A stretch of 64,000 nt of DNA from a virus (IMGVR_UViG_3300014204_013734:32001-96000); one strand, 5' to 3'. Shown: positions 24,227 through 24,303, numbered from the stretch's first letter. Translations and numbers: made by a program. The notes: a model not told the origin generated them from the sequence alone.

Positions 24227-24249
24227 TTTCATTCTGGGGGCTATCCAAA

Positions 24250-24278
24250 GTGTTCCCCACTTACGTGGGGCTGTTCCA
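24250..24278 (+). CRISPR. solitary type I-E-like CRISPR repeat inside a tRNA-like shell (24233-24302)
   Basis: GTGTTCCCCACTTACGTGGGGCTGTTCCA, 29 nt. Confidence 0.65.
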
Positions 24279-24303
24279 GGCGAGTTCAAACCTTGCCCCA
24301 GAT

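What the first reader, a model, noticed from the sequence alone, without database searches (positions are those of the whole stretch)
24233..24302. tRNA-CRISPR chimera: repeat displayed on an acceptor/T-arm scaffold
Seen: TCTGGG(G) pairs with CCCAGA, and a T-arm GCGAG-TTCAAAC-CTTGC is present, but the D and anticodon region is replaced by a full CRISPR repeat. The unit fills a tRNA-sized slot between Arg(ACG) and Gly(TCC). Inference: normal tRNA processing would release a stable RNA presenting a Cas6 hairpin, i.e. a tRNA-scaffolded anti-CRISPR decoy. I know of no description of such an RNA.
Basis: partly seen in the sequence, partly recalled or inferred. Interest (0 to 1): 0.8.

Follow-up and report, generated by a model that had tools for sequence, protein, structure and literature searches.

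The report
tRNA-shaped RNA carrying phage's own CRISPR repeat
A 444-kb phage carries, inside a row of tRNA genes, a tRNA-shaped gene whose middle is one copy of the phage's own type I-E CRISPR repeat, so normal tRNA trimming would probably release a small RNA that displays a Cas6e binding hairpin; no such natural fusion turned up in the papers or sequence collections I searched.

Summary
Window 24233-24302 has a 6-bp acceptor stem and a canonical T arm. Between them sits a complete 29-nt type I-E CRISPR repeat (24250-24278), in the slot between tRNA-Arg(ACG) and tRNA-Gly(UCC). A shell scan finds 27 tRNAs plus this unit only, against 0.01 hits expected per simulated window.

The interpretation needs revising. 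The virus record is an IMG/VR 'provirus' cut that removed 63 kb. The full 444-kb circular contig encodes cas3-cse1-cse2-cas7-cas5-cas6e, with no cas1/cas2 found, followed by a 31-33-repeat array. The unit's hairpin is identical to the commonest hairpin of that array. So it is a cognate site for the phage's own Cas6e, not simply a mimic of a host repeat.

The shell most resembles the phage's tRNA-Gln(UUG).

My best reading (about 0.4) is a tRNA-processed, Cas6e-binding orphan-repeat RNA that acts as a Racr-like decoy or titrator. Rivals are a short-guide crRNA-like RNA, a processing signal, and a relic.

No second example was found in IMG/VR or in metagenomes. There is no sequence variation between samples and no RNA data, so function is inferred. 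The scan had already noted this same stretch, and the two other solitary repeats, on this genome.

The parts
24233..24302 (+). Whole tRNA-shaped chimera (about 70 nt; T24303 follows as the only base before tRNA-Gly)
   Evidence: ARAGORN at a relaxed threshold calls 24232-24305.
24233..24238 (+). Acceptor 5' strand, TCTGGG
   Evidence: Pairs with 24297-24302. Identical to the first six acceptor bases of the phage tRNA-Gln(UUG).
24239..24249 (+). 11-nt linker in place of the D arm. No G18/G19-type motif; at most a weak 3-bp stem.
   Evidence: The GCTATCCAAA stretch resembles the flank of the solitary repeat at 16959 (9 of 10).
24250..24278 (+). Full 29-nt type I-E CRISPR repeat of the phage's own repeat family
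   Evidence: 25 of 29 to the best array repeat, and it matches every near-invariant array position. 24-26 of 30 to bacterial arrays.
24255..24270 (+). Repeat hairpin CCCCAC-TTAC-GTGGGG. By analogy with solved Cas6e complexes, this is the Cas6e binding site, with cleavage expected after G24270.
   Evidence: Identical to the commonest hairpin of the phage array, 10 of 31 repeats. Fold. The cleavage site is inferred.
24271..24278 (+). 8-nt 5'-handle-like tail, CTGTTCCA
   Evidence: Positions -7 to -2 match the array. The first C and the last A are never seen among the 31 array repeats.
24280..24296 (+). T arm: GCGAG, TTCAAAC, CTTGC
   Evidence: 13 of 17 to the T arm of tRNA-Gln(UUG), with one compensatory pair change.
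24297..24302 (+). Acceptor 3' strand, CCCAGA
24149..24226 (+). tRNA-Arg(ACG) with encoded CCA; upstream neighbour
24304..24376 (+). tRNA-Gly(UCC); downstream neighbour. Cutting at its 5' end would set the chimera's 3' end.
   Evidence: The processing step is inferred.
25119..25192 (+). tRNA-Gln(UUG); probable parent of the shell
   Evidence: Best match among 35 tRNAs, with the same six acceptor pairs.
21397..21425 (+). Second solitary I-E repeat. It starts 3 nt after the stop codon of the Ro60/TROVE gene and lies before a hairpin and a terminator.
   Evidence: 26 of 29 to the best array repeat.
16959..16987 (+). Third solitary I-E repeat. It has a mismatch at the loop-closing pair of the hairpin.
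   Evidence: 26 of 29; G16 to A at an invariant position.

Best explanation
The unit descends from a tRNA gene, probably a paralogue of the phage's tRNA-Gln. It kept the acceptor stem and T arm. The 41 nt between them now consist of an 11-nt linker, one copy of the phage's own 29-nt type I-E CRISPR repeat, and one further base.

It lies on the same strand as, and within a few bases of, tRNA-Arg(ACG) and tRNA-Gly(UCC). It is probably co-transcribed with them. The acceptor/T-arm minihelix is the part of a tRNA that RNase P and the CCA-adding enzyme recognise. RNase P would therefore cut at its 5' end, and RNase P acting on tRNA-Gly would set its 3' end. The product would be a stable RNA of about 70 nt.

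This RNA shows a Cas6e hairpin where the anticodon arm should be. The phage-encoded Cas6e, and any host I-E Cas6e of the same repeat class, should bind it and probably cut after G24270. Because it has no upstream repeat and no true spacer, it cannot make a normal crRNA.

I therefore read it as a non-guide repeat RNA that ties up Cas6e and perhaps Cas5/Cas7: a Racr-like decoy or dosage regulator made abundant and stable by a tRNA shell.

Shown here: the anatomy, the tRNA-like shell, the identity of the repeat with the phage's array, and the presence of an apparently intact Cas6e. Inferred: transcription, processing, binding, and the effect on CRISPR activity.
For: - Shell: it is the only non-tRNA hit of the acceptor-plus-T-arm scan, and 0.01 hits are expected by chance. 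Its spacing of 41 nt equals that of the class I tRNAs in the window.
- Origin: the six acceptor pairs are identical to tRNA-Gln(UUG), and the T stem keeps pairing through a G-C to C-G swap.
- Repeat: it is 25 of 29 to the best array repeat, while array repeats average 24.2 of 29 to each other. The hairpin equals the commonest array hairpin. All four differences fall at positions that also vary within the array.
- The phage's own machinery: the cas3-to-cas6e operon and the array lie on the complete contig. They are flanked on both sides by sequence of the virus record. Cas6e aligns over its full length with Thermus Cse3 and keeps the PY-x-MH motif.
- Two further solitary repeats lie on the same strand in the same tRNA region.
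- Published work: solitary repeat units act as RNA anti-CRISPRs by binding Cas6 and Cas7 (PMC10651486). tRNA-like elements have been used experimentally to make crRNAs through RNase P and tRNase Z (PMC4326828).
Against: - It is a single case. There was no second example in IMG/VR or in 241 million metagenome records for the patterns tried.
- Every sampled copy of the phage is identical, so there is no covariation or population evidence.
- A decoy would also tie up the phage's own Cas6e, and I cannot show what benefit that brings.
- The shell is imperfect: a 6-bp acceptor, no discriminator base before tRNA-Gly, and no D arm. Processing is therefore assumed, not shown.
- Only about 16 single-stranded bases lie upstream of the hairpin. 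It could hold few Cas7 subunits, unlike RacrIF1.
- The fold is no more stable than shuffled sequence (z = -1.3).
Confidence: 0.4

Rival explanations
1. Short-guide crRNA-like RNA with a tRNA-made 3' end. Cas6e cuts after G24270. This leaves an 8-nt handle (CTGTTCCA) plus a spacer-like stretch of 24-25 nt (24279-24303). Its 3' end comes from RNase P cutting at tRNA-Gly rather than from a second repeat. Such a short guide would load into a shortened Cascade and bind, without cutting, a partly matching promoter or gene. CreR/CreA and viral Cracr RNAs work this way.
For: - The size equals the 8 + 24 nt of the mature CracrIE1 (bioRxiv 10.1101/2024.10.29.618823).
- Handle positions -7 to -2 match the array.
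- The same phage has a five-repeat cluster with short spacers (roughly 11-27 nt). Three of its spacer-like stretches match sequence within about 850 bp: two in flanking genes (19 of 21 and 26 of 27, with AAC/AAA flanks) and one at the far end of the cluster. The phage therefore seems to use short guides.
- The main array also holds spacers of 17-30 nt.
Against: - No target was found. The best matches in the 438 kb of the phage genome that I could read are at chance level, 13 of 15.
- The would-be guide is locked in the T-arm hairpin and the acceptor helix.
- The first and last handle bases (C and A) are never seen in the 31 array repeats.
- The 6-bp pairing with an upstream strand at exact tRNA spacing has no role in this model.
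Confidence: 0.15
2. Relic without function. A redundant tRNA-Gln paralogue had its middle replaced by recombination with a CRISPR repeat. The unit is carried along neutrally in the tRNA cluster.
For: - It is a single case with no relatives.
- The shell has defects: a 1-nt loss at the acceptor/T junction compared with tRNA-Gln, no D arm and no discriminator base.
- The solitary repeat at 16959 shares flank bases with the unit (9 of 10 upstream, GAGTTC downstream). It has lost any shell and carries a stem mismatch. It therefore looks like a decayed copy of the same thing.
Against: - All helices are intact, and the hairpin is identical to the commonest array hairpin.
- The four differences from the nearest array repeat avoid every invariant position, roughly 0.014 by chance.
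- The T stem kept pairing through a double change.
- The replaced segment kept the exact tRNA spacing of 41 nt rather than adding 29 nt.
Confidence: 0.25
3. Cas6e-dependent punctuation or stability signal. The three solitary repeats would be cutting sites by which the phage's Cas6e separates or caps parts of long transcripts in the tRNA and non-coding RNA region. The tRNA shape of this copy would be incidental.
For: - All three solitary repeats are on the transcribed strand of the same 8-kb region.
- One starts 3 nt after a stop codon and lies before a terminator.
- Cas6e stays bound to its product hairpin (established for I-E), which could protect 3' ends.
Against: - tRNAs on both sides are already released by RNase P, so an extra cut between Arg and Gly is not needed.
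- This reading does not explain why a full acceptor and T arm surround this copy.
Confidence: 0.1

Closest known systems
RNA anti-CRISPRs (Racr), i.e. viral solitary repeat units (Camara-Wilpert et al. 2023, PMC10651486)
   Same: A single CRISPR repeat without a partner, carried by a virus, on a transcribed strand, with the Cas6 hairpin intact. The expected action is binding of Cas6 and perhaps Cas7 without making a guide.
   Different: - Described Racrs have their own promoter and are plain small RNAs. This one is embedded in a tRNA shell inside a tRNA cluster, so its ends would be made by tRNA-processing enzymes.
- The paper describes viral SRUs as not associated with cas genes. This phage carries its own I-E cas genes and array of the same repeat family, about 106 kb away.
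- The paper does not mention tRNA at all (0 occurrences).
crRNA-like regulatory RNAs: CreR/CreA and viral Cracr arrays (bioRxiv 10.1101/2024.10.29.618823)
   Same: Degenerate repeats outside the main array. The 8-nt handle plus about 24 nt is the size of a mature I-E Cracr. The same phage has a short-spacer cluster of that kind.
   Different: Those RNAs have a repeat on both sides and a spacer-like part matching a cas or toxin promoter. Here there is one repeat, the 3' side is a T arm, and no target was found.
Engineered tRNA-flanked CRISPR RNAs: Haloferax icrRNA with t-elements (PMC4326828); polycistronic tRNA-gRNA arrays (from memory)
   Same: These use RNase P and tRNase Z recognition of a tRNA-like fold to cut out a CRISPR RNA from a longer transcript.
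   Different: Those are laboratory constructs with whole tRNA-like units beside the crRNA. Here the repeat sits inside a natural tRNA shell in place of the anticodon arm.
tRNA (Rfam RF00005) and tRNA-like processing elements (t-elements)
   Same: An acceptor stem stacked on a 5-bp T stem with a TTCAAAC loop, tRNA spacing, and a position in a tRNA cluster.
   Different: There is no D arm and no 7-nt anticodon loop. The acceptor has 6 bp. Rfam does not score it at E<=10. It cannot decode.
CRISPR-Cas systems of huge phages (Al-Shayeb et al. 2020, PMC7162821)
   Same: A phage of more than 400 kb with an interference module and array, many tRNAs, and no Cas1/Cas2 found.
   Different: In the passages retrieved, that work does not mention orphan repeats inside tRNA-like shells.

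Membership tests
tRNA (RF00005) | Scores against the tRNA covariance model or standard tRNA finders | tested here: not met
   No Rfam hit at gathering score or at E<=10. ARAGORN at default settings does not call it. It is called only at 70% threshold, with a forced anticodon arm.
tRNA (RF00005) | Acceptor stem stacked on a T arm with a T-loop consensus, at tRNA spacing | tested here: met
   6-bp acceptor, 5-bp T stem, TTCAAAC loop, 41-nt spacing. It is the only non-tRNA hit in the window, with 0.01 expected by chance.
tRNA (RF00005) | D arm and anticodon arm with a 7-nt loop | tested here: not met
   An 11-nt linker plus a 6-bp hairpin with a 4-nt loop stand in their place.
Type I-E CRISPR repeat | 29-nt unit with the family's hairpin and 8-nt tail, matching repeats of real arrays | tested here: met
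   25 of 29 to the phage's own array, with the hairpin identical to the commonest one. The pattern forms arrays with a 61-nt period in more than 70 genome loci.
Type I-E CRISPR repeat | Lies in an array with spacers at about 61-nt period | tested here: not met
   There is no partner repeat within kilobases.
Type I-E CRISPR repeat | A cognate Cas6e is present in the same genome | tested here: met
   Cas6e (PF08798) sits at the end of cas3-cse1-cse2-cas7-cas5 on the complete contig. It aligns with Thermus Cse3 at E = 9e-23 and keeps the PY-x-MH motif.
Racr / solitary repeat unit | A single repeat on a mobile element that mimics a CRISPR repeat | tested here: met
Racr / solitary repeat unit | Not associated with cas genes, and has its own promoter just upstream | tested here: inconclusive
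   The phage has cas genes, though about 106 kb away. No promoter-like site lies directly upstream. The unit sits inside a tRNA row.
Racr / solitary repeat unit | Inhibits the cognate CRISPR-Cas system by forming aberrant Cas complexes | not testable with these tools
   This needs expression and interference assays.
crRNA-like regulatory RNA (CreR/CreA/Cracr) | A repeat-like unit on both sides of a short spacer-like part | tested here: not met
   Only one repeat is present. The 3' side is a T arm and tRNA-Gly.
crRNA-like regulatory RNA (CreR/CreA/Cracr) | The spacer-like part matches a cas or toxin promoter, PAM-proximal by at least 9 bp | tested here: inconclusive
   No match above chance in the 438 kb of the phage that I could read. 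The host genome is unknown.
tRNA-like processing element (t-element) | Cut by RNase P and tRNase Z | not testable with these tools
   The structure fits. Cleavage is inferred.

The most novel reading that the evidence does not exclude
A natural tRNA-crRNA fusion. The phage would use the host's tRNA-processing enzymes together with its own Cas6e to make, from one tRNA-shaped gene, either a Cas6e-bound tRNA mimic or a short guide. The guide's 3' end would be set by RNase P instead of a second repeat. This RNA would steer or throttle the phage's own cas1/cas2-less type I-E Cascade. That would be a new way of making and controlling CRISPR RNAs, and a natural forerunner of engineered tRNA-gRNA arrays.
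Probability: 0.2. Interest if true: 0.85.

Novelty: new variant of a known kind. Interest (0 to 1): 0.66.

Why it matters
Orphan CRISPR repeats on viruses are a recently recognised class of RNA anti-CRISPRs and regulators. All those I found in the papers I read are plain small RNAs or mini-arrays. A repeat built into a tRNA shell would link CRISPR RNA biology to tRNA processing. It would show that nature reached the 'tRNA scaffold' solution that engineers use for guide RNAs, and it would give a compact, testable 70-nt object.

The work also corrects the context. This phage is not cas-less. Its type I-E module and array were cut off by provirus trimming, which changes how every 'cas-less' repeat on this genome should be read. 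Together with the self-matching short-spacer cluster, the phage looks like a good system for studying how a virus uses a Cascade that cannot acquire spacers.

Tried and rejected
- **Relatives through the neighbouring Ro60/TROVE gene.** Nothing in IMG/VR. Two distant relatives (43-45% identity; L083, L084) have tRNA rows after Ro60 but no I-E-like hairpin and no Arg-X-Gly slot. They are not informative about the ancestral state.
- **GenBank phages by DNA.** Only generic tRNA matches.
- **Pattern scans for the fusion** (I-E hairpin, 8-14 nt, then GTTCRAAYC).
  - IMG/VR with the CCCCAC hairpin: 0 hits.
  - IMG/VR with the CCCCGC hairpin: 1 hit, without a T arm.
  - Metagenomes: 44 hits. In the 3 loci I read in detail, repeats abut a tRNA 3' fragment or lie in plain sequence. 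Most of the rest are arrays whose spacer or end resembles a tRNA 3' half. No other hit combines a full T stem, single-copy status and 6 acceptor pairs.
- **Sequencing runs.** No RNA holder was listed.
- **Contigs of four DNA runs laid on 16800-25300.** The phage is identical in landfill and groundwater samples, so no variants could test pairing. The odd 'joints' in that output turned out to be the phage's own array.
- **cas genes in the virus record.** Cas6e, Cas7e and Cas1 are absent from the 381-kb record. This was misleading, because the locus lies in the trimmed 63 kb.
- **Targets for the sequences beside the solitary repeats, and for the array spacers.** None in the phage body.
- **Host assignment from Cas protein similarity.** The best matches are only 30-44% identical (Anaerolineae genomes assembled from metagenomes and a cyanobacterium), too weak to name a host.
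- **Rfam for HDV-like ribozymes next to the unit.** No hit at E<=1.
- **An 8-mer shared between the linker and one array spacer.** I judged this to be chance (my estimate is about 6%).
- **A second I-E-bearing huge phage (G001).** Its dispersed arrays are not near tRNAs.

Full report
**What is in the sequence**

The window is part of a virus record of 381,280 bp. ARAGORN finds 35 tRNA genes in it, and Rfam finds one more, at 17489-17562.

Between tRNA-Arg(ACG) at 24149-24226 and tRNA-Gly(UCC) at 24304-24376 lies the unit. Its parts are as follows:

| Coordinates | Sequence | Role |
|---|---|---|
| 24233-38 | TCTGGG | acceptor 5' strand |
| 24239-49 | 11 nt | linker |
| 24250-78 | 29 nt | CRISPR repeat; hairpin CCCCAC-TTAC-GTGGGG at 24255-70, tail CTGTTCCA |
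| 24279 | G | single base |
| 24280-84 / 24285-91 / 24292-96 | GCGAG / TTCAAAC / CTTGC | T arm |
| 24297-302 | CCCAGA | acceptor 3' strand |
| 24303 | T | last base before tRNA-Gly |

The seventh G has no free partner.

RNA folding returns exactly these three helices, with an ordinary z-score of -1.3.

**Is the shell more than chance?**

I scanned both strands of the window for three features together: a 5-bp T stem around a TTCRA-type loop, an immediately following six bases, and a perfect complement to those six bases 36-61 nt upstream of the T stem.

The scan returned 28 hits. Twenty-seven are tRNAs and one is this unit. Its spacing of 41 nt is like that of the class I tRNAs. Two hundred simulated windows gave 0.01 hits on average.

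The unit is not a tRNA by Rfam, even at E<=10, or by ARAGORN at default settings. At a relaxed threshold ARAGORN calls 24232-24305 with a forced anticodon arm.

Among the phage's 35 tRNAs, the shell is closest to tRNA-Gln(UUG) at 25119:
- It has the same six acceptor pairs, starting with the unusual T-A, C-G, T-A.
- The T arm is 13 of 17 identical.
- One pair changed on both sides (G-C to C-G) and one changed to G-T.
- One base is lost at the acceptor/T junction.

I estimate a chance match of six acceptor pairs to one of 35 tRNAs at about 2%. The shell is therefore most likely a diverged tRNA-Gln paralogue.

**Is the middle a CRISPR repeat?**

Yes. The pattern TTCCCCAC-N4-GTGGGG-N-TGTTCC forms arrays with a 61-nt period in more than 70 loci. 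These include Streptomyces, Frankia, Anaerolineae, Verrucomicrobia, Kiritimatiellia, Lentisphaerae and others. It also forms an array on one IMG/VR contig. The unit matches those repeats at 21-26 of 30 positions.

**The turning point: the phage has its own type I-E system**

The virus record itself lacks Cas6e, Cas7e and Cas1.

Public contigs laid on the region showed 'joints' in which a repeat like the one at 16959 is followed by 31-35 unknown bases and then a repeat like the one in the unit. Their depth tracked the phage's depth in three runs.

The neighbouring Ro60 protein is on record on a 444,386-bp contig. I walked off the end of the virus record using exact protein look-ups. This showed the following:
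- The record is a trimmed copy of that contig.
- Its two ends map to contig positions 399,601 and 336,635. The contig's own ends overlap by 141 bp, the assembler's word size. So it is a closed circle of about 444,245 bp.
- The 63 kb that IMG/VR removed under its 'provirus' label is internal to the phage genome.

The removed segment holds cas3 (864 aa, HD plus helicase), cse1, cse2, cas7, cas5 and cas6e in one operon. Directly after cas6e comes an array of about 2 kb with 31-33 repeats.

No cas1 or cas2 appears in the 57 kb of this segment that I could read; 6.3 kb remain unread.

Cas6e aligns end to end with Thermus thermophilus Cse3 (E = 9e-23). It keeps the PY-x-MH motif, which by my recollection holds that enzyme's catalytic residues, and the glycine-rich C-terminal loop.

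**The array and how the unit relates to it**

The array is unusual. Its repeats differ from one another (mean 24.2 of 29 identical) and its spacers run from 17 to 39 nt.

The unit's repeat is 25 of 29 to the best array repeat. Its 16-nt hairpin is identical to the commonest array hairpin (10 of 31). It agrees with the array at every position that is near-invariant there. Its four differences sit at positions that also vary in the array. However, the first and last bases of the 8-nt tail (C and A) are states never seen in the array.

The unit is therefore a member of the phage's own repeat family and a cognate site for the phage's own Cas6e.

**Other orphan repeats in the same phage**

Two more solitary repeats lie on the same strand in the same tRNA region:
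- 21397-21425 starts 3 nt after the Ro60 stop codon. A long hairpin and a terminator follow it.
- 16959-16987 has a mismatch at an otherwise invariant hairpin position. It shares GC-N-ATCCAAA upstream and GAGTTC downstream with the unit (p about 0.02 for the upstream part). It may be a decayed copy of the same construct.

About 141 kb away, at record position about 197,040-197,260, five degenerate repeats are separated by short stretches of roughly 11-27 nt. Three of the spacer-like parts match sequence within about 850 bp. Two lie in flanking genes (19 of 21 and 26 of 27, with AAC and AAA flanks). One lies at the far end of the cluster. This is the architecture of crRNA-like regulators and viral 'Cracr arrays', which have spacer-like parts of 21-24 nt.

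A second huge phage (469,617 bp, with terminal repeats) also encodes Cas6e and four dispersed arrays with heterogeneous repeats. None of these is near a tRNA.

**How it most likely works**

Shown: the anatomy, the non-random tRNA shell, the family membership of the repeat, and the presence of an apparently intact cognate Cas6e and Cascade.

From established knowledge (recalled, not tested here):
- RNase P and the CCA-adding enzyme accept acceptor/T-arm minihelices.
- Cas6e binds the repeat hairpin very tightly, cuts at its 3' base and stays bound.

Inferred:
- The unit is co-transcribed with its tRNA neighbours.
- It is released as an RNA of about 70 nt by RNase P at its own 5' end and at the 5' end of tRNA-Gly.
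- It is then bound, and probably nicked after G24270, by Cas6e.

It has no upstream repeat and no real spacer, so it cannot yield a normal crRNA. I therefore favour a Racr-like decoy or titrator of Cas6e and possibly Cas5/Cas7, for the phage's own system and for any host system of the same repeat class (0.4).

Alternatives:
- A short-guide crRNA-like RNA (8-nt handle plus 24-25 nt) whose 3' end is made by RNase P (0.15). No target was found in the 438 kb of the phage that I could read.
- A relic of recombination between a repeat and a redundant tRNA-Gln gene (0.25). Against this stand the intact helices, the preserved 41-nt spacing and the placement of the substitutions.
- A Cas6e-dependent punctuation signal (0.1).

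**What is missing**

- No second example of the fusion exists in IMG/VR or in the JGI metagenome collection for the patterns tried.
- The only Ro60-linked relatives are too distant to have the same slot.
- The phage is identical in all samples that hold it.
- No RNA run is listed.

Conservation, covariation and expression are therefore all untested. The host is unknown. The phage's Cas proteins are only 30-44% identical to those next to similar arrays in Anaerolineae and other genomes.

**Comparison with what is known**

Solitary repeat units as RNA anti-CRISPRs (PMC10651486), crRNA-like regulators and viral Cracr arrays (bioRxiv 10.1101/2024.10.29.618823), and cas1/cas2-less CRISPR systems of huge phages (PMC7162821) are all described. 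tRNA-like elements have been used in the laboratory to cut out crRNAs (PMC4326828).

My full-text searches found no report of a natural CRISPR repeat inside a tRNA shell. The Racr paper does not mention tRNA.

I class the unit as a new variant of a known kind. The scan had noted this same stretch and the three solitary repeats before, on this genome. Those notes called the phage cas-less, which this work corrects.

Noticed in passing
Whole record G000; ENA contig loci L131, L133, L148, L150-L152: The IMG/VR 'provirus' record (381,280 bp) is a trimmed copy of a closed circular contig of about 444,245 bp (141-bp end overlap). The removed 63 kb is internal phage sequence. It holds the type I-E cas3-to-cas6e operon and the array, so notes calling this genome cas-less need revising.
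   Followed up: yes
L131:4292-6270: The phage's main CRISPR array has 31-33 repeats that differ from one another in loop and tail. Its spacers run from 17 to 39 nt. No cas1/cas2 was found. Spacer 3 matches the 3' end of cas6e at 31 of 33. A degenerate copy of the cas6e end plus leader sits inside the array (L131 4564-4627).
   Followed up: partly
G000:C1:197040-197260 (L004:1450-1670): Five degenerate I-E repeats are separated by short stretches (roughly 11-27 nt) and bounded by an inverted repeat. Two spacer-like parts match genes about 750-840 bp away on either side (19 of 21 with an AAC flank; 26 of 27 with an AAA flank). A third matches the far end of the cluster. This looks like a crRNA-like regulatory array aimed at the phage's own genes.
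   Followed up: partly
G001 (record of L007): about 78.9, 86.4, 313.5 and 339.4-340.3 kb; cas6e at 81644-82273: A second, AT-rich huge phage (469,617 bp, terminal repeats) also encodes Cas6e. It has four dispersed I-E arrays with heterogeneous repeats. One is a two-repeat unit with a 26-nt spacer whose first repeat is 25 of 27 identical to the repeat in the tRNA shell.
   Followed up: partly
window 21426-21510: After the solitary repeat at 21397 come two long hairpins. Both have loops that show GGGGACGCC. The second is a terminator just before tRNA-Ile.
   Followed up: no
window about 23925-23990, 24395-24460 and 21715-21760: A conserved element (…GGTGTCAACCT…; the first two copies, read in full, also carry GGGCTAATNG) follows several tRNAs that lack an encoded CCA. 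Rfam gives no hit at E<=1 for the two copies near the unit.
   Followed up: partly
L151:769-13665 (contig record about 341-354 kb): A run of about 20 tandem genes encodes proteins of 180-210 aa with no Pfam hit. From their uniform size, this may be a paralogous gene family. It lies in the segment trimmed from the virus record.
   Followed up: no
L123, L128, L106 (arrays) and L089, L100 (repeat fragments): In several unrelated metagenome loci a CRISPR repeat is followed at once by a tRNA T arm plus acceptor 3' half. In L123, L128 and L106 this is a spacer inside an array. In L089 and L100 it follows one or two repeats. They may be spacers taken from tRNA genes or attachment sites.
   Followed up: partly
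L083:12958-13472 and L084:11738-12736: Two distant relatives (Ro60 43-45% identical) also place a tRNA row right after the Ro60/TROVE gene. Gaps of 90-185 nt between some of their tRNAs were not examined.
   Followed up: no
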